From the NCBI GenBank assembly GCA_000004985.1, contig GG738907.1: DNA of 64,000 nt, one strand, 5' to 3'. The DNA comes from Naegleria gruberi (taxonomy: Eukaryota). Below the pieces are notes generated by a model. The model was not told where the DNA came from. It saw nothing but the letters and a program-made list of their open reading frames with translations, and did no database searches. Numbering within the stretch: the first letter of the stretch is position 1; each line of letters starts with the position of its first letter. The position numbers and the translations under genes were made by a program. Shown here in pieces: positions 523 through 64,000 of this stretch.

Positions 523-2733
523 ATGTGCCAAATCATGATGAGGAGTACTAGTTTCGAAGAAGAAGAGGAAACATCTGATGAGGAACAACAAGAACATACC
601 AGTCCTATTCATGCTGATGAAGAAGAAACTGCTGAACAAAGTTCCTCCGAAGATGAAGAAGAAGAAATTATGCTAGCAGAAGATGACGATTTATTAACCC
701 AACAGAATAATCACCATCAGCATCACCCTAACGAAGAAGAAGAAGAAGAGGATTTAAATAATCAACAAGAAGAAGCAGCACCAATTATTGAAGAAGAACA
801 GGAGGATGAAGATTCCGATTCAACTAAATTATCATCACCTGTTATTAGTACTCATCATAATAATCAACACAACACATCTACAGCTAATAGCAGTAGTGGT
901 GCTGCTGAGGAATCCATTCAAATTGATGAAGATGATTTAGAGACGCTGAGAAGGGATGATCATATGGAAAATGGTCTTTTGGAATGCGATGAGGAGATGG
1001 ACTACTTGTTGAATGATGAGAAGATCATGATGCCACAAACACCTCTGCTCATTAATAATGATAATTTTACGACGCCAAATAGTGCTGGATCTGTAACTGT
1101 GGCTATGCCTTTTTTGGATGATGTGGATGGTTGTGTGGAATCAAAACCATTGAATGAGAACGAAATAGAGTGTAAATTAGAATGTAATATAGTAACAACA
1201 GAGGAAGTATCAGAGAAAGAAAATGTAGAATTGGCCACTGAGAGCTCAGTTCTACAGATGAATCAGCCAATTGCACATAACTCTGAGAGTTTAATCGAGA
1301 ATCGTCAAACAATTTCTATTGCAGATGAGCAAATGAATGTTTTAGTGATGGAAGATGATCAGATTGTTGTGAATCAAGAAGTAATAGAGAAACCATCTCT
1401 AATTCAACAACAGGAAACCCAACCAAATAACACAGATATCATCTCATCAATTAATTTGGATGAAGATTTAGATATTGAAATGATTAATGACTTCCTGCAA
1501 TCAGAAAAGGGAGCCGATTTGTGTGAAGAACATTCAAAGGAAAATTCCCCTCATGGAGACTCTATCAGTAATCAGAGTATGAATGATTCTTGGAATACCA
1601 ATTACACCACCGATAGTTTAGGTTCAACAATGCACCATCGACAACCAATGCAAGGTTGTACTCCATTGATATCGAGAAAGAACTTTAATCATCATGCTCA
1701 AAGTATTCCACTGGAAGACTTGCTGCAAAATTATGATCATCGAATTGAGTACTCTACATTGGAAATGCTTATTAAGGAGCTTGAGGGAATAGGTGTTTAT
1801 ACAGTCAATAGTTTACCGCTAGTGCCAAAGAAACATATAATGGCTCTTCCAGGTATGGATGATAGATTGTATGAAAATTTGATGGATTCTGCTCAAAGCT
1901 TGGATCCTTCTCAATCCTTTGGATTTTCCACAGCAACACAATTTCTGCACGAGTTTCACACCAAAAGATACAAGGTCACTACTGGATGCACTGCTTTTGA
2001 TGAGTTGATTGGTGGTGGTTTTGAATCCTCCTCAGTGAGTGAACTTTTTGGAGAGTCTAGCTGTGGTAAAACTCAAGTGTGTTTCACACTCTGTTTAACT
2101 GCACAACTACCACTAACTGAAGATGGTCCCTCTGGAAAGGTTTTGTACGTGGATACAATGGGAACATTTAATCCGAGTAGAATTCAGAGTATTGCAGAAA
2201 GATTTTCTAAAGATGATGAGAGAATGACCACCCTCTTCATGAATAATATTTTGAAAGAAAGAATTTATACATCAGATCAATTATTTTCAAATCTCAATAG
2301 AATTACAACTCTTTTGAAAAGTAATAAGGGAAAACCATTCAAATTGATTATTGTTGATAGTGCTGTCAGTGTTTTCAGGTCTGAATATAAGGGAAAGGAT
2401 GAAATCAACATTCGTCAACAATACTTGTTAAAATATTTGGATTCTCTGAACAAACTAGCTGAACAATTTAATATTGCCATAGTAATTACCAATCAAGTTA
2501 TGGACACATTCGATAAGCCACTAATGTACTCACCTTACAAACAAAATACTTCATCTACCATTAAACCAGTTGGAGGACATATTATGGGTCACACCATTCC
2601 AACAAGAATCCAACTTTGTAGAGAGAAGCAGAAGAGAATTGCCAAAGTATTTAAATCTTCAACCAGGCCAGAAGGTGTCTGCAACTTTTCAATACAAGCA
2701 ACAGGTATAACAGATTATGAAGATGTAGACTAG
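523..2733 (+). CDS. RAD51-family recombinase paralog (RecA-like ATPase core with HhH region) and a long acidic N-terminal extension
   Basis: Walker A GESSCGKTQ and Walker B KLIIVDS in RecA-fold spacing; helix-hairpin-helix-like segment (LEGIGVYTVNSL...LPGMD) upstream as in Rad51/XRCC3-type proteins; ~430 aa Glu/Asp/Asn-rich N-terminus; single exon. Confidence 0.7.
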   Translation: MCQIMMRSTSFEEEEETSDEEQQEHTSPIHADEEETAEQSSSEDEEEEIMLAEDDDLLTQQNNHHQHHPNEEEEEEDLNNQQEEAAPIIEEEQEDEDSDSTKLSSPVISTHHNNQHNTSTANSSSGAAEESIQIDEDDLETLRRDDHMENGLLECDEEMDYLLNDEKIMMPQTPLLINNDNFTTPNSAGSVTVAMPFLDDVDGCVESKPLNENEIECKLECNIVTTEEVSEKENVELATESSVLQMNQPIAHNSESLIENRQTISIADEQMNVLVMEDDQIVVNQEVIEKPSLIQQQETQPNNTDIISSINLDEDLDIEMINDFLQSEKGADLCEEHSKENSPHGDSISNQSMNDSWNTNYTTDSLGSTMHHRQPMQGCTPLISRKNFNHHAQSIPLEDLLQNYDHRIEYSTLEMLIKELEGIGVYTVNSLPLVPKKHIMALPGMDDRLYENLMDSAQSLDPSQSFGFSTATQFLHEFHTKRYKVTTGCTAFDELIGGGFESSSVSELFGESSCGKTQVCFTLCLTAQLPLTEDGPSGKVLYVDTMGTFNPSRIQSIAERFSKDDERMTTLFMNNILKERIYTSDQLFSNLNRITTLLKSNKGKPFKLIIVDSAVSVFRSEYKGKDEINIRQQYLLKYLDSLNKLAEQFNIAIVITNQVMDTFDKPLMYSPYKQNTSSTIKPVGGHIMGHTIPTRIQLCREKQKRIAKVFKSSTRPEGVCNFSIQATGITDYEDVD

Positions 2734-22315: not shown

Positions 22316-25300
22316 TTAAACAGAAGAAACAGTTACTTTCTTTCGATGTGTCAAAAACCATAATCTCAGTCCAAATGCTATACATGCCACAAGTCCCATA
22401 CCTCCAACTATTGGAATACTAATTAAGGCAAATAAGGCATACATGCTATTATCATTGGATTGTGAACAAATATTACTTTTACATCCATCTCCACAATAAT
22501 TAGCTTGGCACTGATCACAATTTGATCCAGTCCAATAACCATCTGCAGAATTGGCTTTACACTGACATATGTTTTGTGAAATGCAAAGTCCGTGACCTCC
22601 ACAAACAGCAGAATTGGTTTTTGGAATTTCAAAACATGTCCAAGAATCTGAATTGCCTGGAGTTTTTGTGGAATTTTGTGTTGTTGATTGAGTAGTATTA
22701 TTTACAAGAGTGTTATTATTACTTGTCGTGGTAGTATTTACATTATTGCCTATAAGTGTATTATTATTTACAATTGTGTTATTTGAAGAGTTAGTATTTG
22801 TAATATTATTATTTGTTATATTGTTTACAGTAGAATTATTATTCAATGACACAGTCTCATTTGTATTCATTGTTGTATTATTCGAATTATTGACAGTAGT
22901 GTTATTTGTAATAGTATTATTTGTAACGGTAGAATTTGAATTAAGTGTTGAGTTTGAAATAGCGTCATTGCTTAATGTTCCATTATTGTTTGGAATTGAA
23001 TTATTGGTATTGGAATTATTCATCTCTAGAGTGGTAGTATTTACAATAATTGAGCAATCCAATCCCTTCCATCCAAATTGACAATCACACTTATTTACAG
23101 TTGAACAGTTTCCATTTCCGGAACACACTGAACTATCATTGGCAAAAATGTTAAAGCAAGAAGGGATGGAACAATCGAATCCAAACCATCCATTAAAGCA
23201 TTGACAAGAATCAGTTGCTGTGCAATTACCATTTCCAGAACAAACTGAGCTCTCATTGCTTACAATTCCAAAACAAGTGGACAATTCACAATTATTTCCA
23301 TAAAAACCAGGATTACAAATGCAAGTATTTGGTGAATTACAAACTCCTCTTGATGAACAAACTTTTGAAGAATTTGAAATAATTCCAAAACATTTAGAGA
23401 ATTCACAAAATTGACCACCGTATAAATCTCCACAATCACAAACATCAGGTGCAAAACAAACACCCAAGCCATTACAGACATTTGGATTGTTGGCAAAGGT
23501 TCCATTGCATGTACGAAGTGTGGATATTACTCTTAGTCGACTATTGTCAGAGTCAATTACAATTATTTCACCATTTCGTCTTAAAATTACTCCAGATGGA
23601 TTATTGATTTTTGAAGCGGAGGCAGTGGTTCCATCTTCACTGTAACCCAAATCACCAGTTCCTGTAATGGTGGTGATATTACCATTAGAGAGAACTCTTC
23701 TAATTCTATTATTGTACGAATCTGCAATCAAGAGTTCATCACCGTCAATGGCAATTCCTTGTGGATATTTGAGTTGTGCATTTGTTGCTTCGATTCCATC
23801 ACCGTTATAACCTAATGTGCCTGTTCCTGCAACAGTTATAATTGTTCCATTAGTAAACATCTTTCTTATTCTATTGTTATAAGTATCTATTTGAATTAGT
23901 TCATCAATTGAAGATTCTTATTTCACTTACCTGCAATGTACATGTTATTACTTGAATCAAATGCGATAGATTGTGGATAATTCAGCTTGGTATTGTTCGG
24001 TAAGAGATAATCACCATTAAAACCAACAGAGCCTCCAATAACTGTGGAAATATTTCCACTTGGTAATATTAGTCTAATTCTATGATTATACGTATCTGTA
24101 ATATAAACAAGATCATTTGAATCAACAGTTACTGAAACTGGGGAATTGAGTTTCGCATTTGTTGCTGGAATTCCATCGCCATTGTAGCCACCTAATCCAA
24201 CTCCAGCTATAGTAAGAATTGTACCATTTGTCAAAATTTTTCTAATTCTATTATTACCAGAATCTGGTAAAGTTTCAATACAAAAAATAATGGAAGATTA
24301 CTTACCTGCAATATAAATATTACCAATGGAATCAAATGCAATTCCTGTTGGTTTGTTAACTTGAGCACTTGTTGCCAAAATTCCATCTCCATTATAACCA
24401 AAAGATCCAGTACCTGCAATGGTTGTGATGGTCCCATCCAAGTACGAAATCTTTCTAACTCTGTGATTGCTTGTATCTGTGAAAATCATTGAAACCTTAA
24501 TAAATTTCACACAATCAACTGAAAACTTACCAGCAATGTAAATATTTCCCAATGAATCCAATGCAGCACCTTTAGGTTTACTCAATGCGCTCAATCTAGA
24601 ATCAACATTTTCACCACAATATGATGGAGAACCTTGTCCAGCTATTGTGGTAATAAATCCATTTGAAATCTTTCTAATTCTGTGATTTCCCTTATCAGCA
24701 ATATATAAATCACTTGTGTTCTTGGCAAAATTCATCAATTCAGGAGAGGCAAGAGTTGCCAAATTGACCGTAGTATTATCAGTAAAACCATACAAACTCG
24801 TTCCTGCAAATGTTGTAATGGTTCCATTGGTAGACACCTTTCTAATTCTATTAGAATCTGAAAAATAAACTTCGCCTAATGATGAAACTGCAACTCCATA
24901 AGGTGAATTAATTTTAGCTAAGGTTGCCAGGCCTCCATCTCCATAATAATCACCTGTTCCAGTACCGGCTATGGTTACAATAGTGCCATTCAATAATACT
25001 TTACGAATTCTGTTATTATTGGTGTCAGCAATATAAATATTGTCTTTCGTATCAACAGCAACACCAAAGGAAAGAAACAAAGTTGCACTCGTAGCTTTCA
25101 TGTTATCTCCATTGTAACCTGTGAAAAAGTAATAAATTAAAAAACAGTTCCGTTAAAATACATACCTTGAGAATTGCTTCCTGCCACTGTTATAATTGTT
25201 CCATTGTTGAACACTTGGCGAATTCTATTATTGTTCACGTCGGTAAAGAGTAATTCTTCCTTGCTATTTAATGTAAGGCCATAAGGATAATTAATAGCTG

Positions 25301-32712: not shown

Positions 32713-35700
32713 TTATGTAAAATAATATTTATTTAATGGTAAAAAGCGATGTTTAAGCCTCTTCTTCCTTGAGGTTTGCGTAATTAATATTGTTGTAATT
32801 TTCCTTCTTTTCATCACCACTGCCCGAAGAGCCTTCTTCTTTCTTCTGTAAATAACAAAGGCTACCACTCCTACAACAAGAATAACAATTACCACTATTA
32901 ATAAGATTAATCCCAATCCAATGAGGTAGTAATAGTTGTGATTTTCTCCAATAATAACACTGTTAGAGTCTTTTGGAAGGCCTTGCTGACTTGATTCATG
33001 AGTTGGAGGAGGATTTGGTGCAATCATTTGGGATATGATGGCAACGGAAGATGTCCATGATTTTGAGGAGCAGGATACTGAGAAGATGGTTGCTTCTCCT
33101 TGTTCTATTTGATTAAGGATGGTTGTAGTTACATTATCAGTGTTCCAGCTGTTAGAATCATAGAATGCACATGAAAGACTTGTTGCTGCCTCTTTCTGAA
33201 CTGAAATGTTGTGCATGTATAAGTGGATAGGCTCTTTGAGATTTGTTATTTCAATTCTTTCTGTTGTTCCATTTTGCAATAGAATGAAATTAACTATTGG
33301 ACTAACTACTTTGGAATTCTCTTGTGATTTTGATGATTCAGGAATTACAGAGGAAGCCATTGTTAGAATCGTTTGTCCTAAAGTATTATTCAAAAATACA
33401 TATTCTGAAATAGTGGAAGGTAGGACCATGATGATATTTTCATACTTTTCGAAGGTGATTGTGAGATGATTGTTAATATTTTGCACTTCCACAATGTTTG
33501 TTTCTGTTTCATTTGATTTCGATTCAATATTTGAACAATAGAAAGAATCTTTCTCAGATTCTGGACACAACACATTTTGATCACATTCAGCTCCAAAATA
33601 TCCATACTTGCATTGACACTTGTCTAATGAAGAGCAGAATCCATTACCAGAACAAACACGTTCATCAGAGAATGCAATACCAAAACAGTTGAATAACTCA
33701 CAAGAATCACCAAAGTAGCCACCAGAACATTCACACTTATTTGGAGATACGCAATTCCCTCTGGACGAGCAAACTGTCTTGTTGGACATTAGAATATCAA
33801 AACATTTGAAAAGTTCACATTCATCTCCTTCATAACCCTCTAAACATTCACATTCATTATATCCAATACAATTACCTTTTCCAGAACAAACATTATTAGC
33901 AGAAGGTATCTTTCCATAGCAAATTGTATTATCGAGGGTCAATTGAAGCATTGGATTTGGCTCTCCAGCTTTACCAGAAATAGCAATAGAAAGTTCCACA
34001 TAGCTCGATGAAAATTCTGTTATTGGAATAATTAGTGATCTGTCATGGTCTCCATTCGAAGAGTAGCTGCTGTAGTCTGGGGAGTAAATTTGTTTAGCAA
34101 CACCGACATTCACATAACCTGAAACAGCCTTAATATTCAAAACGAGATAGTCAGAATATGGCCGTCCGTAATAATTGAGGATGTTGGGCATTCCATCAGT
34201 AGATGCCTTCATCAATATAGTATCTCGTAAACGGATGAAGGCGTCATCTAAGAAGGCAGATAATTTGAATGTGGAAGCAACTAGCCCGTAAACTCCAATG
34301 TAATAGCATCCAACTTGTTGATTGCTTAACATGAGAACTTGACCGTATTGAGTTTCAGGATCCACTTTCCAATTATAATGAGTTTCATTCGCAGGTTGGC
34401 AGTCATTAGAAACATACATGATTGTGGAGCCGGTAATATTGATCAACGCAAAGGAAAGATGTGAAGCAATGTTTTTTTTGAGATCGAATCTGAATTGATG
34501 AATCTCATTGTTAGCGACACTATCTTCCCCAGAAATTCTATTCAAAGGTAATACTCTGTAAATAATTTTCACTTTCAACTTATACGAAACAGGAGTTGAA
34601 GAACTCGTCTTGACAGCAATGTAAAGGTAACTTCCTGAAAAGAGGATTTCCTGGTTGTAAATACCATTAATTTCTTGTGGTGCACCATCTTGCCCTATTG
34701 GTTTAGGATTTTCGGTACTGTAATAAAGGTTAATGACACCAACACTTTCAATTGAAATGAGCAATTTCATTGAACCATCCAATGGATATTGGTAAAATTG
34801 ATAGAAATCCGTATTTACAATTTTAGAGGAAACAATCTGGTCATTTGATAAGAGAATTGACTTGTTTGATTGTAAAGCCATTATTGAGTAGTATGAAAGT
34901 GCTGAAAGTTCTGAATAAGTTCCTTCCACTGTAACACGAAACTCATTTGAAGTTATGAGTTTAGAGATTCCTGGAATTAGCAATGCATTTGGTGACCGTG
35001 TACTCCAATTATAATCTCTTGGAGAAGGAAAGGTATTCTTGGTATTGACATACAACTCAACGCTTCCAACTGATGTTGAAATGAAGAACATTATATCAGT
35101 ATTGTTAAGTTCCTCTTGCTTGGCTTTGAAAGTGAAGTATCCATATTTTCCATAAGGTACAACAAACAATCCAACTCTTCTTCCATTGATCAATTCTGTT
35201 GGAGGATTTTCTGTTGAATATGTCAACGTATAAGAAGAGTCAACTTCACCAAAAACAGAAAATTTGAGATCACTTCTCTCGTTAATAATCAGTTGTCCAG
35301 GTTGACCTACTGTTCCATTAGCTGCCCTAGTGTGAACATATTGATTTGGTCTTTCACTTTCAAAGGAAAGGAACAATTTCACACTTCCAAAAAATACAGT
35401 CAATGTAAGGCTACTTTTTAGCATATCTTTCTTGTTATGTTGGTAGTAATTCAATTGATTTGCAGCAACTGTTCCATTCACAGCAACATCCTCTTGTAAA
35501 AGCACGTATTCTGGCATTGATTTTACGGTCAAAGTTACCAATCCAATCTTGATTCCAATGTAATAAGTGCCAACCTTTGAATCACTCATAGGAATTTGCT
35601 TTACTTTTTCTCTATTTGCCAACATGTAATAATCATAACTGTTCTCAGTTGGTTTGGTTCCATACTTGATATAAAAGTCTACCATCTTGGTTGTTCTCAC

Positions 35701-36621
35701 AATAACTTCAAACCTTAAATTTTGTAATATCAAGTTATTGTAAACAAAATAGTGCAAATCTGAAGTTGGTGAATCCTCCCTGAATGCAATACTAAGACTC
35801 TCAGATATCATTGTTGAAGTATTTGCTTGACATGAAACTATTGTAAACTTGTTGTCAACAAAATATCCATACACTCCAATCCAGTACTCTCTTGGAGAAT
35901 TTTCCTCCACTGGAATGGTAACAGAATCAGGTCCATAACTACGTGATGCATAATCATAATCTGTACTGGTTGGAAATTGAGATATTCCTGAAACATATAG
36001 ATCAGAATCTCCCTCTTGAGTACCAATAGAAATATAGAGCTTTGTTGGTAGTTGACCAGTGACTTTAACTTTAAAATAGGAATAACCATTTCTCTCTACC
36101 TGACTGTATTGTGGTTGACCATCAACTAGAGTAACATGTGCTGTTTAGGTTCGTTTCCAATAGTAAAAATTTCCCATGTTTTACAACTTACCTGGACTAG
36201 TACTTCCCCACAAGTTGAAAGTAAACCTAGCAGGAGTATTACCATACACACCAATTGTGAAAATATTTCCATTACTTGGCCATGTTCCATTCGCAGTGAC
36301 AAGTAAACTTGGATACGAAAGCAAACACTTTTCACACTGTAAAGTTGGTTGACCATACGTGCTAACATACATGTAGACTTCACCACTCAACGGAGTCAAT
36401 GCAAATGTAGCAACAGCACTAGAAAAAAGACTTGGATCTACATAGTAATAATGCCATCCTCCTTCTTCTACCATACCATTTATAGGAATACCAATTTGTT
36501 GAATGATTTCTGCTTGATTTTGAGTGGACAGTAAAATATTTAATAATAAAATGATGGTTATCAACAAGAGGGAAACAGGAAACAGCTGTGTACGGACCAC
36601 CACTGGTGGTGTGGAAACCAT
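32713..36621 (-). CDS. large type I membrane glycoprotein with four tandem beta-rich repeat domains, EGF-like repeats, Thr/Ser-rich stalk, TM and short basic tail; CDS complement(join(32713..36140,36192..36621)), ~1285 aa
   Basis: signal peptide MVSTPPVVVRTQLFPVSLLLITIILLLNILL; recurring domain-end motif [YF][YW]IG[VI]YG (TIGVYGN, EYWIGVYGY, TYYIGIKIG, CYYIGVYGL); three EGF-like modules (CSGKGNCIGYNECECLEGYEGDECE...); TM YYYLIGLGLILLIVVIVILVVGVVAFVIY followed by RRKKK; 51-bp GTAAGT..ACAG intron. Confidence 0.7.
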
Positions 36622-41877: not shown

Positions 41878-42234
41878 TTACAAATTTTCTTTTTGATAAA
41901 TTTCAACTTGCTTGATCATATTGAAAAGCAAATCTTCAACTTGCATGGCAGATTTTTCAATTCCATTTACAAATTGACTATATAAGGTAAAATTAGTTTC
42001 CTTTCCACACATGCCAAGTTTCTGAACGAGTGGCATTCTGTCGAATTCTTCTATTTGTTTCCTTCTTTCTGAATATTTCTCAATTCTTTCATTTTCTGAA
42101 TAGATAAAAAAGTATAAATACCATTCTAGGTAAAGATCCAATTTTCTACTTGACAATTCGTCAACAGATTGGTGACCAGTATGGGAAATGAACATTCTCT
42201 CGAGGGGAATCCAATAATTTTCATAAATTTGCAA
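41878..42234 (-). other. downstream out-of-frame continuation of the DUF262 gene (frameshifted C-terminal segment); possible pseudogene or sequence error
   Basis: ORF begins at TTG overlapping the stop of 42221..43048 in a different frame; no GT dinucleotide exists in the ~60 nt around the junction, so a canonical intron cannot explain the shift. Confidence 0.35.
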
Positions 42235-43048
42235 TTTGCTTAGTTTCGTCCAGTTTGGAAAGTAAGTGATTCTTGATTAGGTCTGAATAGGATAAGTCAA
42301 TTCCAGGAGTTTTGATGTAAAAGAGAATTTGATTGGATTTTCCAACATCGTACCGTTCTCCAAAACATTCTTGTGCATTAATTTCAGATTCTTCATATTC
42401 AATAATCACAAATTTACCATTTATGGTAAGAATTGGAATAAGGCTTGATTTTACAATGGCCAAACTATTAACTTGTTGTTTTACAAGTTGTGATTTGAAG
42501 ATTTTGTAAAATATTTGTCTGGTATTGTGCATATTAGAGTTTTGAAGAAGATTAGTTTGATCACCTTTGAATCCAATAAGAATTTCGATATTCGAAACTC
42601 TGTCGTCATGACTTGGGATTAATCGAGAAACATTCTTTGCAATTTCACTTGCCTTTGCATATTTATCTTCACTTGACAAGTATTCCTCTTGCAATTTCTT
42701 CAAATCAACTGACTTGACAAAGATATACGAATGAATTTCGTCTAAAATCTTTTCACTATCTACCAATTCCAAAGCAGCATCTCTCAAAGCACAAATCCCA
42801 ATCAACAAGGTAGTCAATCTCTGTTGACCATCAATACAAACTCTACTTGCCAACTTCTTTTGAAAAAACAACTTTCCAATATGATGACCGAATGAAGTTC
42901 CATTGAAAACCAAATCATTGTACAATTGCTTGACAATCTTACTATTCCAGCAATATTTTCTTTGATAGATTGGAATCTGAATCTGTGAACTCTTACCAAA
43001 TGAAGGATCTTTAAATAGAGAGCTAAGTGTATGTGGTTCGATTTTCAT
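42221..43048 (-). CDS. DUF262 (ParB/Srx-like nuclease superfamily, GmrSD N-terminal domain family) protein, N-terminal part
   Basis: hallmark motifs IPIYQRKYCW and IDGQQRLTTL in the expected order and spacing; ends at a stop that is followed immediately by a +1-frame ORF (41878..42234). Confidence 0.6.
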   Translation of the reverse strand: MKIEPHTLSSLFKDPSFGKSSQIQIPIYQRKYCWNSKIVKQLYNDLVFNGTSFGHHIGKLFFQKKLASRVCIDGQQRLTTLLIGICALRDAALELVDSEKILDEIHSYIFVKSVDLKKLQEEYLSSEDKYAKASEIAKNVSRLIPSHDDRVSNIEILIGFKGDQTNLLQNSNMHNTRQIFYKIFKSQLVKQQVNSLAIVKSSLIPILTINGKFVIIEYEESEINAQECFGERYDVGKSNQILFYIKTPGIDLSYSDLIKNHLLSKLDETKQIANL

Positions 43049-43220: not shown

Positions 43221-45671
43221 TTACATGATTGTGCATTTCCTTTTTCGTGAGGGATTTTGAAGTTTGCTTTTTCTTCTCTTCAATTCTTGTGATAGGGTGG
43301 CATCGTCCTTGGCCAATGCCTGATCAATGATTGGTAATGTTTTCACATACGTCTTGACTCGGGCTCTATACATCATGGCTGAAATTTTCTCAAAGGAGCT
43401 TTGAATATTCTCCAGAGTGTCTGTATTAACAATGACCACATCCTTAATAAAGTACGAGTAGGTTTTCTGAACCTCCCATAAATCATTCAAGGAAATCTCG
43501 TGTAAGGTGGTATTTTTCGTGATTGTTCCCAGAATGATGGCTGCTGGAGGATCCATGGTTGTTCTTTGCTCATCCTTCTTTCTAAACTCGATACACTTTT
43601 CAATGTACTTGATCATGGCATCGAGGGAACTTCTGCTCGACATGTAGGCAACGAATATGACTCCATCAGTGCCTCTGAACTTGTATTCTGCACTATTTGG
43701 AGCGAGGGAATAGTCCATAAAACTGCACGATTCTACCTTTACTTTGAATTCTTCCTTGTTAAATTTTATACTCTTACATTCAAAGTCAGTTTTGCCTGGT
43801 AAGGTGAATTTCATGTAAATAATTCATGAATAAATATTTGAAAACTTACTCTCGAAAAATAGAGATCTAATTGTTTGCACAACAAGAAAGTTGACACCAG
43901 CAACCAACAAGTAAAAGTAATTGGATGGATCGTAAACTACATTCTTCTTTTTAGGAATGACAACCTTTTGTTGCAGAGATTGAGTATTCACATACGAGTA
44001 GAGTCTCTTGTAGGAAATGTTCAATGACTTTTTACATTCGAGATCCCTCATGTACTCTTCCAGCTTGTCAATGGTTGGAAAATTAGGATAGACATATTGC
44101 CACAGTATCATGTATTTCCAAAAACCTTCCACAATACTATTCTTGAATTGATCTTCATTTTCAGGATCAAATTCAAGAGCCGAGTGAAAACTTTTAGAAA
44201 TGAGCATTAAATTAAAATAATCACGAGTAAGCTCTGCTGGGAATGGTGTATATTTCGGATAGTGGCCTATTCTTCTCATGGTTGAGCTGGAATTTCTTCT
44301 CGATATGGTAGAATTACTCGAATCTATAGGTGTTATTGAACTAGGAGAAAAGGAACCAATCATGTTAGTACCTGTTGGTGAAAAGGAAAAGTCAGCAAAC
44401 AAGCTTGACGTATGGGTTGTTGTACATAGTATAAAACTGGCAATGTGTAAAATAATTTCTTGTGGACAGTCAGAAAGATTCGAATAATTCCTAATTTTTT
44501 GTCGTTTAGGTTTTTGACTAGAAAGCTGTGACAGTGTACTACTCAACCTCCTGATGAATTTTAAATTTGATGAAGGATTATTAGTCGGTGATGAAAGTAC
44601 TTCATCTTGCTCCGTGAGACAAATTATTGTTGTTGGGTCAATCAGGCATGTGGCATTTGCCGTCATTTTTTCACCATTATTTTCAAGTGTTTGGTTATTT
44701 TTATCTCCTTCCTGATCAATCTGGGAACGATTTTCCCTTCCCAAAACCTTGTCATTAATCAAACAGTTTTCTGCTGGGTTGCCTTCTTCTGTATGTCTTT
44801 CGTTTGAGGAAGAATGAAAGCTCAGTTCTTCTCTACTACTGCAACTAGTATTAGTTGTTGGTGATTCGACAAATGGTACGACATTTGATTCATTACTGCA
44901 ACAACTAATATTTGATAAGCTGTGATTCGTATTGTGGACTCCTGAAACAGATGAGGAAAATGACTTGAATGAGGATAAAGTATTAGTGGTTGAATGTTTC
45001 TTCTTGTTAGGTGTTATTAGAGAGCCATCTACTGTTAGAAATTGAGTGTTAGAAGGACTCTTATTTAGTGGTGGAGAATGGTAATGTTTCTTTGCCATCT
45101 TGGATTCTTTAGATTTACGTAAGAGTCTTGTGAGAATGTTATTTCCCTTAATGGTCAAACTTTGACCATTAGTTAGTAGTGAAGGTTGAGTAGTATTTGA
45201 TGTTATTGAGATGGTTGGAATGGCAGTGTTAGTGAGGGCAATAGAAGGAGGACATGCTTGATTATTCTTATTATTCGAAACGAGGGTCTCTGAGCGAGAG
45301 AATGAATCTCTAGATTTCTGAGAAACTTTAGGTAATGGATTCGAGCTGGATCTTCCTCTTGTCTTACTTTCATCTGGAGCAAAACTTGGACTAGCCATTG
45401 AATCTGTCTCATGAATAGAACATCTCTTCAAATTTGCTGATTGACTAGCCAATAAATCATTCCTCTCCTGAATACCAACATCATGCTTTGAAACTTGATT
45501 TAAATTTCTACTAAATATTGAAAGAGAGCTAACGACACCATTAATACTATTTGATGAAATATCCAATCTTGAAAAGGATAAATTTGAGCCTTGATTTCTC
45601 TTACGACGTTGTTTCGTATAAGATGGAGCCAATTGAGCAGTTGAAAGTAGTACTACTTGATGAGAGGGCAT
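43221..45671 (-). CDS. hypothetical protein (~798 aa), Ser/Thr/Asn-rich N-terminal half and conserved C-terminal region; CDS complement(join(43221..43795,43850..45671))
   Basis: two track ORFs join in frame through a 54-bp GTAAGT..CCAG intron (...SLFFE|SKTDFECKSIKF...); total 2397 nt in frame. Confidence 0.5.
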
Positions 45672-58634: not shown

Positions 58635-61600
58635 ATGCCACCAAAATATGTCATTCAACAGCAAAAATTGAAACAACAGGCAGTGTCTAATCAATCACCA
58701 CAAGCAAATTCTAATGGTTTATTTGTTCAACTGGGTGTGTTACCACAAACCAATCCACAACCACAACCAACTTTAGTTGATTTACCTCCTCTTGTTGTTC
58801 CCACCAACAGTATCATTACTCCGTCCACACCAAATGATCAATCATCTACACCACTGTCAGCTGTTTCAACATCATCCATAAGTTTGCAAGCATCATCAAC
58901 ACCAACTAGTTCATCACCTCCTGCAGCCAAACCAGCAACAAAGAACGAAACTAAAAAACCAAAAGAGAAAGACAAGAAAGAAAAGGACAAGAAGGAAAAA
59001 AAAGAAACGAAGGATAAGAAAGAAAAGAAAGAAAAGAAGGAAAAGAAAGAAAAAAAGGAGAAGGAAGAGAAGGACAAGAAGAGAAAAAAGGTTCCAGAAA
59101 AGTCTTCTGAAAAAAGTAAAAAGAAGAAATCCGATGCTTCTACTCCAACAATCAACACAACATCAATTACCAGTAGTAGTGCAACTCCAACAGTACCATC
59201 TCCACAAAAGGTTGTAAAAGATGTTGAAATGACAGATGTCTTAACAAAGGAAGAAGTGATCAAAGCAGTGTTTGAAAATATTCCAAAACAAGTTATTGTT
59301 AAAATATCATGCTTGGATTCTAATGAGTTCCAAATTGATGAAGATATTGTATTAAGTGAAGAGGGAATTCCAATTGTTAACGGTATCAAATTGTTTCAAT
59401 CAATTGATTGGAACAATTCATTAGAAGATCATGAATCTTTCTTTAATTTCAACTGCTCACTTGTTCTTTCAACTATTGCCAGCGAAAGTTCAATAACAGT
59501 TCAAGAGTTTATTTATTCTATTGATGAGGCACTCAAATTGAATCAACAGTATTGTAAGGATTTGATGCGTTCTATGAATATTTCACACGAAAACTATTCC
59601 TTTGTGTACGATTTGCAAACCAACTCAATGAGCTTGATTTTCAAGAGAGAAACAGAAATAGTGGAACTTGCTGAAATGCTCTACGAAATCAAGACTATTA
59701 GAGAACTGAAGGAGGCTGAAGAAATGGAAGCCGAGGAGCAAATTATTACAGAGGGACCAATAGATGAAATTCAAGTCAATTTTGAGTTTAATTTTGAAAA
59801 GGAGGAGAAAAAGTATGTATTGGAGCTTCGTGCACCAAAGGCAAAATCGTACAAAACCATTGTCTCATCCCATCTCCAAATTGCTGAAAGTGATATTTTG
59901 AATTATGGTGAAATAGCTAGCGAAACACTGGTTGAAGCTAATGGTGTATTACCAACAAAACTGAAGGACGTTCTAGCTAGCAGAGTTGATGTAAAGGTAG
60001 TGCATCGTCATGTCTATTATGAGCAGAGAGTAATTTCATATGAAATATTCGAAAGAATGAAGGATATTATTGGACAGACTGAGTTTTCATTATATAATCA
60101 TCTCTGCTTTCTAGTTTGTACGCCTGATCAGAATACCTTATGGCATCAGACAATGGAAAGATTGGAAAGATCCAACATTCTGCCACCAAATACCAAACTT
60201 TCACATGTCTCAATCAAGTATAGAAAAGATCACGTCCAGATGTTCGAAAAATTCAGAGACAGAATTGCAAATGAAAAAGAAACTCTCTTCATTATAATTG
60301 TAGACGAGTGTCACTATGCAATTACCAAAGAAGGTGCTCACGACAAGATTGTTAATGATGAGCTCGCTCTTCAACACAATAACTTTTTCATTCTATTGGT
60401 GAGCGCAACCCCTTACAATGTCCTCTCAGTTGATAGTAATATTCCAGAAGTGTACAAACTCTTGAACAAACATGAAGATTTGGAAGTTGGTACAAAAATT
60501 CAAGTCACTTCCACGAATTATAACAAGATAGGATTTGGTGTATTGATCAAATATGAGGAGCAATATTCTACTCCTGTGTATGAGCTAATTGAATCCAAGG
60601 ATCAAAATATATTTTTGGAGGATGTAGAAGAAATAACTGGTAAGATTATACCACTCATGAGTGATGAATCTGAAGAGAAAAACTTTGAAATTGGAGAAGT
60701 TGTGGAATATGAAGAAGTTCCTGACACAAATCCTCAACCAACTTCTAAGAAATCAATCTCAACAGTCAGGTACATAGTCAAATCCCTAACAAGAAACTTG
60801 GAAATGGAAGTAAACCTCTCAGATAGAGATTTACGAAAGATTAATACTTCAAAAACTAGAAGAATTACAAATCAAGCAATTGGCAATATTCCAAAGGGAA
60901 AACTTGTTGAAATACATGATATAATCAAGTGGAGTGTAACTTTCAAACCAGTGAATAATGATCCAGCAGTATCCAAAGAATACACCCTCAATGATTGGCA
61001 ATTCAAACACCTTACCAATTACGAGGAGTACAATGTTGTGAGTTGGAGTGAAGTACAAAAGCGTACAACCTTGGAAAGAACAGAGCAAGATAATCAAACG
61101 AAGAAATACTTCAGCAAACAGGATTACATTAATTCTCTCAAGCAAGAAGAACCACTTGTTTTCAAAGATTTAGAATTTGAAAGAGTTCTGAAAAAGATCA
61201 AGGTTGCATCCAATACTTTAAGACCAATCATGTTAGCTATTGACTATCACTTTTGGATTATTACTGAAGGATTGAGAAGAAAACTATATGATGAAGTTAC
61301 TGCTTACAGACATTTTAATTCCATTGATGCTGCTCTTGATATTGAACCAAAGCACAAAATATACGTAGAGATTTGTAAATTAATTTATCTAGCTTACTTG
61401 TGTGCTAAACATTTGAAGATGGATGATGTTTTGGAGAATCAAGAATTTGATGACGAGGACGATGACTATGATATCCTTGATGAAACTAAAAAGACCGTAA
61501 AGAAAAAGAAGGAAGATTTGGAAAAGAAAATTCAACATTTACTGGAATATTTGAAAAATAAGTTCAAGCCAAAGAATCCTGAAAGATTATTTTCAGTTTT

Positions 61601-64000
61601 AATCGATCAAGAATCCCACACCAAAACTCTCATTAATACCTTGATAGAATCTGGTAAAATTCCAAATGATAACAGTGTGACGTTGAGAGGGAAAATGAAA
61701 ATATTGAGAATTACAACTACAGATTTTGCCAACACTGTTTTCAAGCTATTGAGAAGTTCCATTTCCAAAGTAGCAGCAAGTGGCTACATTTCACCAGATA
61801 TTCTCATAGACACTGGTGAAAATCCACTCACTCTCGATCAATTATCTTTCATCTCAAGAATGAAACTTGCTGAAAAAGTTCTGTCCACAGAAGATTATGA
61901 AGTTTTCCAAAGAAAACCAAGTAGACTTTCTAAGGAGAAAAAATCTTTGGAATACATTAATTTACACAATTTCCCTTGCATTCTAATCCTAGTTGCCAAA
62001 GGTCGTCAGGGAGATACCTTCCCTAATTCATTTGATTGCTTGGATATGAGAGCCAAAGGTGATTCCTTGCCAAATTACTCATCTTTTACACAAGAATTTG
62101 GTCGTTTGTGTAGATATGTGGACGATTCTGACAAGAAACCTATTGCACTTGTAACAGATTCAATTTATAAGGATTTATCCAAGTGCGGTGAAGGTGGAGC
62201 TACAATAGTAGGTAACACGAGCATGAAGCTTGATACCTACATGACCAAGATGAAAGGAAAGGAAGGTCAAAAGTATTGGTCCATTGTTACATTCTGTAGA
62301 AGAACCATGACTGCAGTTGATGGAAAAAAGCTTAAAGGTGAAAAGAAAAGTCCTCCTTCCTATGATTCAATGAGATCAGGTTCTGATAAGGATATCTCCT
62401 CAAAGAAAAATCACAAGAATCGTATGTTACTATTCGCCGAACCACAAGTAAGTATATTTATAGTATTTGTGAATATTAATAACAATGAAATCAGATTGGT
62501 AAAACAGACGCCTTTATTCACTGTTTGGAAAGAGTAATTCATGACATTGAGAAAAATAGAAGTGAGCGTATGGTTGATATTAATGAAGAAGAACAACCAT
62601 ACGATGATAATTCTATTGGTGTTGATGCTGTTATTTCTAACTATTCTGAATTGGAACGTGTATTACCTTACTTTGAAAATTTACAAGGTCAACAAAGGGG
62701 TGAATACAGCTCAATTTCTGCTGGAAAGTATGCCAAGCTTGTTTTGAAAACCAGAGAGGAAATATTCACTGAATTTACACCTGATAAGATCAGGTCTGTA
62801 CACAAATTATCAAGAATTGAATCTTTCATGACAAGTTCCAATCATTATTGGAGCAAGTTTATGGAAAAATTGAGTAGCCACAACTTTGATTTGGAAACAT
62901 TCCAGACATTTGATGGAAGATACAATGATATTTTACATCCTTCATCTGGATATAGAACGCTGAAGTTTGGAGAATCAAGTTCTACATCATCCTCGAAAGA
63001 AATTATTGAGAAAGTTGACTTATCCGAAAAGATGAATATTGGTCTTGCAGATATGAATTATAAGGATAAATTAATTACCATCCAATTGCAAAAGGTATTT
63101 GGATTGAAGATGGCCATGCTAGAGTCTTGCTTTCCAGGAGAAAAGCCATTAATTTCCATTCCATCAAGCAAAATGAATTGGTTTGTAATTTCATCAGATC
63201 AACAACATGTCACCAGATTCCTACTGCCTGATGATCCTAATGGTGTTAGAAGTTGGATATTTGTCCCTTCTTGGAATAGAAGTGCCTCAGGTTTATTCTA
63301 TCTGAAAAGTATGAAGGTTCCATATAGACAAGTAATTGTTGTAAGACATTCCGAATTCAAGTGCTATAGAAATGTTTTGGGAGGAGATTTTGTGATTATG
63401 AGCTTACCAGATATTGTGAATATGAAAGATCTTTTCAAACTATTCCCAATCCCAACAACTGAACAAAGAAAGTTACAGTACAATGAAATAGTGGATGGAA
63501 AAACTCTTATTGATTATGAAATGAAGGACGATGTTGGAGGAATTGGCTACTCTAGAATGGTCATTCAAATTCTTTCCTATGCATTTGGTTTGGAATTTAT
63601 TTGGATGATGGATGATAATTGCCATCACTTTGAGAAGGTTGAAAATGGTAGAAAGGTTCCTTGCTCATTGGCAGAAGTTTTAATTCCACTCGAGAAAATT
63701 GTCTATGATGAAAACAAACCAATTTCAACTATTACTCAGTCAATTCAACCAATATTTAAAAATAGACAAAATCCATCTCTGAATATCACTCTTAATGATA
63801 GTATAAGCAGTTTTACTCCTGGAAAGGATAAAATTGCCATGATTGGAGTTAGAAAGGATGGATACAGATATTCTTCATCGATCAACTACAAACCATTTGT
63901 AAACAGTTTCACCATTTGTTCTCTCTTCCTTTTGAATACAAAAAGAACAATTGATTCTGGTTGTATATTCCCATCAAGAAGATATTTAGAAGACATTGAA
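58635..64000 (+). CDS. very large multidomain protein (>1770 aa, 3' partial): Pro/Ser/Thr-rich N-terminus, KEKK charged repeat, SF2 DExH-helicase-like core (motif II DECH, motif III SAT), C-terminal GT8-like DxD glycosyltransferase-like module; CDS join(58635..62447,62495..>64000)
   Basis: LFIIIVDECHYAI followed 31 aa later by FFILLVSATPYN (canonical II-III spacing); KGRQGDTF candidate motif VI; no recognisable Walker A upstream; after a 47-bp GTAAGT..ATCAG intron the frame stays open to the window end and contains WIFVPSW ... IQILSYAFGLEFIWMMDDNCHHF resembling the GT8 LHCWSLTQYSKCVFMDAD block. Confidence 0.6.
58960..59100 (+). repeat. coding charged low-complexity repeat (KEKDKKEKKEKKEK...) within the large gene
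   Basis: aaagaaaag/aaggaaaag purine-rich reiteration translating to (K/E/D) repeats; mirrored spurious antisense ORF 58838..59389. Confidence 0.5.

What the first reader, a model, noticed from the sequence alone, without database searches (positions are those of the whole stretch)
41878..43048. DUF262 (DGQQR; GmrSD/ParB-like nuclease family) gene in a eukaryotic context, split by an unspliceable frameshift
IPIYQRKYCW and IDGQQRLTTL are the two signature motifs of DUF262, the N-terminal domain of GmrSD-type modified-DNA restriction enzymes and related proteins. In the examples I know the family is mostly prokaryotic, so its presence in a eukaryotic genome would point to horizontal transfer. 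The ORF stops at 42221 and continues in the +1 frame from 42234. No GT exists near the junction, so this is a true frameshift: pseudogenisation, a sequencing or assembly indel, or conceivably programmed.
Basis: partly seen in the sequence, partly recalled or inferred. Interest (0 to 1): 0.65.

Follow-up and report, generated by a model that had tools for sequence, protein, structure and literature searches.

The report
Frameshifted nuclease-less DUF262 gene, Naegleria
This is the Naegleria gruberi copy of a bacterial-type DUF262 (ParB-like NTPase) gene from an old, nuclease-free protist branch of that family; a tiny insertion has broken its reading frame, most likely as a recent inactivating mutation or an assembly error, which makes it an ordinary finding.

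Summary
On the minus strand, ORF 43048..42221 (275 aa) matches Pfam PF03235 (DUF262/GmrSD_N) at E=2.3e-21, with the QR and DGQQR motifs. It stops at a TGA, and the homology continues in the +1 frame to 41878.

The window is Naegleria gruberi. The 275-aa ORF is the annotated NAEGRDRAFT_73802.

- **The frameshift is real in this sequence and cannot be spliced out.** Orthologues in N. fowleri and Willaertia magna, and an environmental relative, read straight through.
- **The lesion maps to 42226-42242.** That stretch holds a perfect 7-nt tandem duplication (GCAAATT x2). Removing one copy gives a 387-aa ORF. A 1-nt insertion in the same stretch fits the orthologue profile slightly better, so the two cannot be separated.
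- **It is not a GmrSD-type restriction enzyme.** Neither this protein nor any member of its clade has the DUF1524/HNH nuclease half.
- **It is not a recent transfer.** The gene belongs to a mainly eukaryotic clade (92% NJ bootstrap) and has host-like codon composition.
- **Nothing supports a programmed frameshift.**

The downstream part is as conserved as it is between intact genes. The break is therefore very recent (a null allele or young pseudogene) or a sequencing error. Interest is low.

The parts
42221..43048 (-). ORF1, 275 aa. This is the annotated gene model NAEGRDRAFT_73802 / XP_002671275.1 / D2VXM4. It holds the complete DUF262 (GmrSD_N) domain and ends at a premature TGA.
   Evidence: ORF list. 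Pfam PF03235 at E=2.3e-21, residues 19-263. 100% identity to P0001. The N-terminus MKIEPH matches the N-termini of the orthologues.
42947..42976 (-). QR motif IPIYQRKYCW (residues 25-34). The clade-specific form is FQRxYCW, where bacterial proteins have YQRxYSW.
   Evidence: Sequence. P26, Q29, R30, C33 and W34 are invariant in the clade alignment. Cys versus Ser column.
42818..42832 (-). DGQQR motif (residues 73-77), the NTP-hydrolysis motif of DUF262 proteins.
   Evidence: Invariant in all 70 aligned sequences. Its role in ATP hydrolysis was shown for DndI, where R87A abolishes ATPase activity (PMC11662687).
42226..42239 (-). Perfect tandem duplication of a 7-nt unit, GCAAATT GCAAATT on the coding strand. 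This is the candidate lesion. Deleting one unit restores a single 387-aa ORF.
   Evidence: There are only 8 such period-7 perfect duplications in the 64-kb window, so about 0.007 are expected in the 53-nt zone where both frames are open.
42221..42276 (-). Zone in which both reading frames are open; the shift must lie here. Homologue-profile scoring narrows it to about 42227-42242. The premature stop TGA is at 42223-42221.
   Evidence: Three-frame translation. Zone limits. Scoring of all 1-, 4- and 7-nt repairs against HMMs of the orthologues.
41878..42222 (-). Out-of-frame continuation of the gene (+1 frame). It encodes the conserved YxxYWxPxE helix (Y273, W277, P279, E281) and an all-helical C-terminal region, and ends at the stop at 41880-41878.
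   Evidence: tblastn to N. fowleri, N. lovaniensis and Willaertia, where it lies directly after the ORF1 match; the two parts share one frame in N. fowleri and Willaertia. Invariant columns. Helical C-terminus in the AlphaFold model of homologue P0002. No DUF1524 or any other Pfam hit.

Best explanation
This is the Naegleria gruberi member of a nuclease-less, eukaryote-type branch of the DUF262 (ParB/sulfiredoxin-fold, DGQQR NTPase) family. It was inherited vertically within the vahlkampfiid amoebae.

In the sequenced NEG-M assembly its reading frame is broken by a small insertion at 42226-42242. The insertion is most simply a replication-slippage duplication of the heptamer GCAAATT. Translation then ends at a TGA after residue 275. 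The conserved YxxYWxPxE helix and the helical C-terminal third are lost.

- **Shown:** family membership, absence of a nuclease domain, the frameshift, that it cannot be spliced out, that orthologues read through, and that no further decay has occurred.
- **Inferred:** the lesion is a real and very recent inactivating mutation (a null allele or young pseudogene). By analogy with DndI, SspE and BrxU, the intact protein in relatives would be an NTP-driven DNA-binding or sensing switch. Having no nuclease of its own, it could only act through binding or through a partner protein.
For: - **Family.** Pfam PF03235 at E=2.3e-21. A profile of the clade hits solved DUF262 proteins: DndI 9jfl at 1.3e-19, also SspE and BrxU. 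The AlphaFold model of the closest intact homologue, P0002 (pLDDT 82.5, pTM 0.86), matches DndI at Foldseek E=4e-8 over 450 columns.
- **No nuclease.** There is no PF07510 hit in any clade member. PADLOC profiles are matched only over their first half. The bacterial EHIxP and GNLT..N columns are empty or unconserved in all 23 clade members.
- **Frameshift.** Shown. D256, L257 and N260 lie in ORF1, and Y273, W277 and E281 lie in ORF2, all invariant across homologues. In N. fowleri and Willaertia the two parts are contiguous in one frame.
- **Not spliceable.** The nearest coding-strand GT is at 42346. All 31 frame-restoring GT-AG candidates delete the most conserved block.
- **7-nt duplication.** Removing one copy gives a 387-aa ORF. 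The chance expectation is about 0.007.
- **Recent.** The ORF2 part is 31-36% identical to orthologues, against 35% between the intact N. fowleri and Willaertia genes. Relative-rate tests show no significant acceleration (p>=0.05). There are no further stops in either piece.
- **Old resident, not a recent import.** GC3 is 0.29, against 0.28-0.31 in host genes. The clade has 92% NJ bootstrap and the heterolobosean subclade 95%.
Against: - Reads could not be inspected, so an assembly or base-calling indel is not excluded.
- HMMs built from the orthologues score 1-nt-deletion repairs 6-8 bits higher than the 7-nt repair (294.1 vs 285.7 and 255.7 vs 249.2 bits). This is because the linker then has 14 rather than 12 residues, closer to the 15-16 seen in the heterolobosean relatives (14 in Dysnectes; my count from the sequences). 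The lesion may therefore be a single inserted base in the A3/T3 runs, with the heptamer repeat partly coincidental.
- There is no synteny with the N. fowleri or N. lovaniensis loci, so strict orthology is not shown.
- The truncated 275-aa product still contains the whole Pfam-defined domain and could keep some activity.
- No expression data were available.
- The function proposed for the intact protein rests on analogy only.
Confidence: 0.6

Rival explanations
1. Sequencing or assembly artefact. The real N. gruberi gene is an intact 387-389-codon ORF, and the extra base (or heptamer) exists only in the draft consensus.
For: - Apart from this one lesion the gene is flawless. All invariant residues are kept, neither piece has another stop, and the ORF2 part shows no excess divergence.
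- Single-base repairs in the A3/T3 runs give the best fit to the orthologue profiles.
- Only one assembly of this locus exists in the collections searched (P0001: 1 member, 1 contig).
Against: - A perfect 7-nt tandem duplication sits exactly where the frame changes. This is what replication slippage produces. It is expected by chance only about 0.007 times in the 53-nt zone.
- From my own knowledge, not checked here: the assembly is multi-fold Sanger shotgun, and base-calling errors there are normally single bases.
- The family looks dispensable. The N. lovaniensis copy also carries frame disruptions.
Confidence: 0.28
2. The locus is functional as it stands. Either the truncated 275-aa DUF262-only product is the working protein, or the two ORFs are expressed as separate polypeptides (a split gene).
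For: - ORF1 contains the entire Pfam-defined DUF262 domain, including the QR and DGQQR motifs.
- In DndI the N-terminal NTPase domain (residues 1-238) is a separate structural unit (PMC11662687).
Against: - The truncation removes Y273, W277, P279 and E281, which are invariant in the 8-sequence clade alignment. W277 is invariant in all 70 aligned DUF262 proteins.
- The first ATG of ORF2 (MFISH...) lies downstream of that motif, and no separate gene model for ORF2 is on record.
- No relative has the gene split at this point.
Confidence: 0.08
3. Programmed +1 ribosomal frameshifting joins the two ORFs during translation.
For: - The downstream frame is +1, and ORF1 ends at a stop codon followed by A (UUA UGA A). 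This loosely resembles stop-codon-stimulated +1 sites such as antizyme or RF2 (my own knowledge).
- Both pieces are perfectly preserved.
Against: - Orthologues in N. fowleri and Willaertia, and P0002, are in a single frame at this site, so no conserved recoding signal exists.
- A shift at UUA-UGA would read ...ANL-ENYW and lose the invariant Tyr273, whose codon TAT overlaps the stop.
- No slippery heptamer or other stimulator was identified.
- The heptamer duplication offers a simpler mutational cause.
- To my knowledge no programmed frameshifting has been described in Naegleria.
Confidence: 0.03

Closest known systems
DndI of Salmonella Cerro 87 (PDB 9JFL), the phosphorothioate-sensing DUF262-DUF1524 effector
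   Same: It is the best solved relative by sequence profile (E=1.3e-19) and by fold (Foldseek E=4e-8 and TM 0.51 over about 450 columns for the model of homologue P0002). It shares the QR and DGQQR NTPase motifs and a helical region after the N-terminal domain.
   Different: DndI carries a C-terminal HNH motif (N541) and nicks DNA (PMC11662687). The Naegleria protein and its clade end before that motif and have no equivalent residues. The Asn of the FESxN motif, invariant in the bacterial proteins aligned here, is replaced by Tyr or Gln, and about 10 residues are inserted before G249.
GmrSD / BrxU / SspE type IV restriction and defence enzymes (DUF262 + DUF1524)
   Same: The N-terminal domain family is the same (PF03235). 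SspE and BrxU are hit by the clade profile (E=1.2e-8 and 1.8e-3), and PADLOC SspE, Orf5 and HEC-06 models are matched.
   Different: Only the first half of those profiles is matched. There is no DUF1524 domain. The gene is a single eukaryotic nuclear gene and is not in a defence island.
Naegleria fowleri FDP41_001308 (P0003) and Willaertia magna ABK040_013988 (P0005)
   Same: They have the same architecture and clade signatures, are 35-38% identical over aligned columns, and cover the full length of the repaired ORF.
   Different: They are intact single ORFs of 472 and 581 aa with low-complexity inserts, whereas the N. gruberi copy is frameshifted. Flanking genes are not shared.

Membership tests
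DUF262 / GmrSD_N (Pfam PF03235; ParB-like NTPase domain) | Profile match above the curated gathering score over most of the profile | tested here: met
   77.3 bits against a 33.2-bit cut-off, E=2.3e-21, profile positions 7-199 of 199. The result is the same for the repaired ORF.
DUF262 / GmrSD_N (Pfam PF03235; ParB-like NTPase domain) | N-terminal QR motif and DGQQR NTP-hydrolysis motif | tested here: met
   IPIYQRKYCW and DGQQR are present. DGQQR is invariant in 70 aligned homologues.
DUF262 / GmrSD_N (Pfam PF03235; ParB-like NTPase domain) | Fold similar to solved DUF262 proteins | tested here: met
The model has pLDDT 82.5. Its top PDB match is DndI 9jfl at E=4e-8.
GmrSD-type (type IV) modification-dependent restriction enzyme | C-terminal DUF1524 (PF07510) His-Me finger / HNH nuclease domain | tested here: not met
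   No PF07510 hit at E<=1 in the repaired ORF or in 6 clade members, and none in ORF2 alone. The EHIxP and GNLT..N columns are empty or unconserved in the clade. The C-terminus of the model is all-helical.
GmrSD-type (type IV) modification-dependent restriction enzyme | NTP-dependent cleavage of modified DNA | not testable with these tools
   This is a biochemical property.
Eukaryote-type nuclease-less DUF262 clade (defined here) | Shared signatures (FQRxYCW, HxxGK, an insert of about 10 residues before G249) and separation from bacterial proteins in a tree | tested here: met
   Signatures are seen in the 23 clade members and not in the 47 bacterial or other sequences. NJ bootstrap is 92%. A eukaryotic source is named or inferred for Naegleria x3, Willaertia, Dysnectes, Paramoeba and contigs L004, L005 and L089; the source of the rest is unknown.
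Programmed +1 ribosomal frameshift | Shift site conserved in orthologues, and a shift that preserves conserved residues | tested here: not met
   Orthologues are in one frame at this site. A shift at the stop codon would lose the invariant Y273.
Spliceosomal intron bridging the two ORFs | GT-AG (or GC-AG / AT-AC) intron of length 3n+1 that keeps the conserved residues | tested here: not met
   There is no GT between 42346 and the stop. All 31 frame-restoring GT-AG candidates remove the block containing G249, D256, L257 and N260, or Y273, W277 and E281. By my reading of the sequence, the roughly 43 nt between the N260 and Y273 codons contain no GC...AG or AT...AC pair.
Recent horizontal gene transfer from bacteria | Closest relatives bacterial; composition unlike the host | tested here: not met
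   The closest relatives are heterolobosean, followed by other eukaryote-type sequences. GC is 0.32 and GC3 0.29, the same as host genes. IMG/VR holds only distant phage-type relatives at 22-27% identity over full-length matches.

The most novel reading that the evidence does not exclude
The N. gruberi gene is one member of an uncharacterised branch of the DUF262 family that is widespread among protists (Heterolobosea, Fornicata, Amoebozoa and unidentified eukaryotic metagenome contigs). This branch lost the nuclease half, changed the FESxN motif and gained an insert. It may be a prokaryotic defence NTPase re-used in eukaryotes as a nuclease-free, NTP-driven sensor of DNA state or modification. 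It may also be repeatedly discarded within Naegleria: frameshifted in N. gruberi, apparently also in N. lovaniensis, and intact in N. fowleri. The clade itself is reasonably supported. The functional reading is pure inference.
Probability: 0.2. Interest if true: 0.5.

Novelty: new member of a known kind. Interest (0 to 1): 0.22.

Why it matters
The practical value is modest.

- **Annotation.** The deposited model NAEGRDRAFT_73802 (275 aa) is a truncated reading of a gene of about 387 codons. It should be flagged as frameshifted or re-checked.
- **Naming.** 'GmrSD restriction endonuclease' is a misleading label for this protein and its protist relatives, because they have no nuclease domain.
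- **Wider relevance.** The only broader point is that a nuclease-free DUF262 lineage appears to be established across several protist groups. That adds one more case of a prokaryotic defence-type domain living on in eukaryotes.

The frameshift itself raises no new question.

Tried and rejected
- **Intron rescue.** I enumerated all GT-AG introns of length 3n+1 up to 400 nt. Each one deletes conserved blocks.
- **UGA read-through or selenocysteine.** Reading on in frame gives 20 unrelated residues and then another stop.
- **Synteny.** tblastn of all window ORFs from 25-60 kb against the N. fowleri, N. lovaniensis and Willaertia loci found only the DUF262 gene itself. Orthology therefore could not be backed by gene order.
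- **An independent copy of the junction.** The search for related proteins returned no other close relative of the N. gruberi gene. A JGI-metagenome pattern allowing 0-9 nt at the junction gave 0 hits. Exact look-ups of the window's proteins found no contig.
- **Giant-virus or phage origin.** IMG/VR holds only generic phage-type DUF262 genes, at 22-27% identity over full-length matches.
- **Second copy in the window.** None was found.
- **Choosing between the 7-nt duplication and a 1-nt insertion.** Orthologue HMMs prefer the 1-nt repair by 6-8 bits, while the repeat statistic prefers the duplication. This is left open.
- **Structure of the repaired N. gruberi protein.** Homologue P0002 was modelled instead.
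- **Single-sequence PDB search.** It gave nothing. The profile search did.
- **Literature.** No paper on eukaryotic DUF262 proteins or on this gene was found.

Full report
**What is in the sequence.** The feature is a gene on the minus strand. ORF1 runs 43048..42221 (275 aa, ATG start, TGA stop). A second ORF, 42234..41878 (118 aa), overlaps its end in the +1 frame.

ORF1 matches Pfam PF03235 (GmrSD_N, formerly DUF262) at E=2.3e-21. The score is 77.3 bits against a 33.2-bit gathering cut-off, over profile positions 7-199 of 199. It carries IPIYQRKYCW (42976..42947) and DGQQR (42832..42818). The nearest GT on the coding strand upstream of the stop is at 42346.

**Source and context.** ORF1 is 100% identical to the 275-aa 'predicted protein' of Naegleria gruberi (EFC38531.1 / XP_002671275.1 / UniProt D2VXM4, locus NAEGRDRAFT_73802). 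The rest of the window encodes typical eukaryotic nuclear genes in a compact, intron-poor, 31-38% GC arrangement. These include Rad51, the second-largest subunit of RNA polymerase I, ZGRF1, a RasGEF, teneurin-type EGF/NHL proteins and a GREB1-type helicase. The deposited gene model covers only ORF1. No model for ORF2 is on record.

**The frameshift is genuine in this sequence and is not an intron.** Four intact or near-intact relatives were found:
- N. fowleri, P0003, 472 aa.
- N. lovaniensis, P0004, 388 aa.
- Willaertia magna, P0005, 581 aa.
- P0002, 444 aa, on an environmental contig.

They align with 93-98% (75% for Willaertia) of a conceptually repaired N. gruberi ORF.

Invariant residues lie on both sides of the break. 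D256, L257 and N260 are in ORF1. Y273, W277 and E281 are in ORF2. In N. fowleri and Willaertia, tblastn places the ORF2 match directly after the ORF1 match and in the same frame.

I enumerated all GT-AG introns of length 3n+1 (up to 400 nt) that would give an open frame. There are 31, and every one removes either the best-conserved block (GKSNQILFYIKTPGIDLSYSDLIKNHLL) or the YxxYWxPxE motif. By my reading, the roughly 43 nt between the N260 and Y273 codons contain no GT, and no GC...AG or AT...AC pair. Reading through the TGA gives 20 unrelated residues and then another stop.

**Where and what the lesion is.** Both frames are open only between 42276 and 42221. Inside that zone, at 42239..42226, the coding strand reads GCAAATT GCAAATT, a perfect tandem duplication of a heptamer. 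Deleting one unit yields a single 387-aa ORF reading ...SKLDETKQIYENYWIPLE.... The 64-kb window holds only 8 perfect period-7 duplications, so about 0.007 are expected in the 53-nt zone.

A second test points the other way. I built HMMs from the orthologues, leaving out N. gruberi, and scored every possible 1-, 4- and 7-nt repair and every 2-nt insertion in the zone. The best repairs are 1-nt deletions between 42227 and 42238, for example ...KQIANYENYW. They score 294.1 and 255.7 bits, against 285.7 and 249.2 bits for the heptamer repair. The reason is that they leave a 14-residue rather than a 12-residue linker, where relatives have 14-16 (linker lengths counted by me from the sequences).

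The two tests agree on the place (42226-42242) but not on the event. It is either a 7-bp slippage duplication or a single inserted base in the adjoining A3/T3 runs. I lean to the duplication but cannot decide without reads.

**How old is the break?** It is very young, if it is real.
- Neither piece has a further stop.
- All 25 invariant columns of the clade alignment are intact in N. gruberi.
- The out-of-frame part is 31-36% identical to orthologues, against 35% between the intact N. fowleri and Willaertia genes. The ORF1 part is 37-42% identical, against 42%.
- Tajima relative-rate tests show no significant acceleration on the N. gruberi branch (p=0.05 to 0.9, depending on the outgroup).

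This pattern fits a recent null allele or young pseudogene in the sequenced strain. It fits a consensus error equally well, and that is the main rival.

**What kind of protein it is.** A profile of the clade hits solved DUF262 proteins: DndI (9jfl) at E=1.3e-19, two other DUF262 proteins, SspE (6jiv) at 1.2e-8 and BrxU (7p9k) at 1.8e-3. An AlphaFold model of the closest intact homologue, P0002 (pLDDT 82.5, pTM 0.86), has DndI as its only significant PDB match (E=4e-8, 450 aligned columns, TM 0.51).

In DndI the DGQQR motif drives ATP hydrolysis. A C-terminal HNH motif (N541) nicks DNA, and ATP hydrolysis controls DNA binding (PMC11662687).

The Naegleria protein has the NTPase half but not the nuclease half:
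- No PF07510/DUF1524 hit at E<=1 in the repaired ORF or in six relatives, nor in ORF2 alone.
- PADLOC GmrSD-like, Orf5, HEC-06 and SspE models are matched only over their first halves.
- The bacterial EHIxP and GNLT..N columns are empty or unconserved in all 23 clade members.
- The modelled C-terminus is purely helical.

It therefore fails a defining test for a GmrSD-type restriction enzyme. What the intact protein does is unknown. By analogy I infer an NTP-driven DNA-binding or sensing switch that can act only by binding or through partner proteins.

**Horizontal transfer?** A profile search found about 25 proteins, all without a DUF1524 hit in the precomputed Pfam column. They score above or merge into the top of the bacterial DUF262+DUF1524 proteins. 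Besides three Naegleria species and Willaertia, they include:
- Dysnectes brevis (Fornicata; transcriptome).
- Paramoeba (Amoebozoa; transcriptome).
- A metagenome contig whose neighbours are eukaryotic genes (enhancer-of-rudimentary, NFACT, PX; L005).
- Metagenome contigs with reverse-transcriptase genes or very low gene density (L004, L089).

These sequences share features that the bacterial ones lack: FQRxYCW instead of YQRxYSW, HxxGK, an insertion of about 10 residues before G249, and loss of the bacterial invariant Asn of FESxN. In an NJ tree of 70 sequences (233 columns) they form one group in 92 of 100 bootstrap replicates. The heterolobosean subgroup appears in 95 of 100.

The N. gruberi gene has GC 0.32 and GC3 0.29, indistinguishable from nine other genes of the window apart from one outlier. 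IMG/VR contains only distant phage-type relatives. An ultimately prokaryotic origin is plausible, given how the family is distributed. Even so, this is an old resident of amoeboflagellate genomes and not a recent import into N. gruberi.

One caveat applies. Flanking genes are not shared with the N. fowleri or N. lovaniensis loci, which are syntenic with each other. Orthology, as opposed to old paralogy, is therefore not proven.

**Programmed frameshifting.** Nothing supports it. The site is not shifted in any relative. A +1 shift at the UUA-UGA stop would replace the invariant Tyr273, whose codon overlaps the stop. The sequence itself offers a simple mutational cause.

**A related observation.** The N. 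lovaniensis copy is also disrupted. Compared with the intronless N. fowleri gene, it has two single-base deletions, so the homology runs through three frames. The deposited model P0004 bridges them with a 205-nt 'intron'. That assembly is PacBio RSII polished with Quiver only (PMC6125883), so errors are possible. If the deletions are real, the gene is being lost repeatedly in Naegleria, which would favour the pseudogene reading here.

**Verdict.**
It is a DUF262 gene in a eukaryote with a true, unspliceable frameshift. It is not a GmrSD nuclease, not a recent transfer, and not programmed.
- The most likely explanation is a recent inactivating insertion (0.6). A consensus error comes next (about 0.28).
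- This is a new, broken member of a known family, and interest is low. The only wider point is the existence of an uncharacterised nuclease-free DUF262 lineage in protists.

Noticed in passing
L002 10001-11372 (N. lovaniensis PYSW02000021.1), compared with L001 10001-11419 (N. fowleri): The N. lovaniensis DUF262 gene has two 1-nt deletions relative to the intact N. fowleri gene, near L002 10445 and 10672. Homology therefore runs through three frames. The deposited protein model skips about 205 nt as an intron. The assembly is PacBio RSII plus Quiver only, so these could be consensus errors or a second independent pseudogenisation.
   Followed up: partly
L003 4424-9630 (Willaertia magna JBEGDK010000070.1): In Willaertia the genes immediately upstream of the DUF262 gene are a FAN1-like VRR_NUC nuclease (1016 aa) and a SAD/SRA (methyl-cytosine-binding type) protein (606 aa). 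This may be coincidence, but it is suggestive for a nuclease-less DNA-sensing NTPase.
   Followed up: no
L005 5840-9701 (ENA metagenome contig NODE_2015, 31 kb): Two tandem 566-aa copies of the eukaryote-type DUF262 gene lie on a contig whose other genes are eukaryotic (enhancer of rudimentary, NFACT, PX domain).
   Followed up: no
window 43221-43814 (-): The 197-aa ORF directly upstream of the DUF262 gene has GC3 of 0.47 and GC of 0.39, while the other nine genes checked have GC3 of 0.28-0.31. It has no Pfam match.
   Followed up: no
window 58635-62537 (+): A 1300-aa ORF matches the circularly permuted SF2 helicase of GREB1 proteins strongly (PF20692, E=1.9e-130). From memory, this family is better known from animals.
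   Followed up: no
window 523-2733 (+): In this 736-aa ORF the Rad51 domain occupies only residues 484-731. The 480-residue N-terminal extension has no Pfam match and may be a mis-joined upstream ORF or a real extension. The exact protein is not on record in the contig collection.
   Followed up: no
window 22316-23860 (-) and 32713-35910 (-): Two proteins carry teneurin-type EGF repeats, one of them with NHL repeats. This is an animal-like extracellular repeat architecture in an amoeboflagellate.
   Followed up: no
alignment A3, columns 587-592 (query residues about 229-234): The FESxN motif, whose Asn is invariant in all 47 bacterial-type DUF262 sequences aligned, reads F[LK][WED]x[QY] in the eukaryote-type clade. 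About 10 residues are also inserted just downstream. The NTP site of this clade may therefore work differently.
   Followed up: partly
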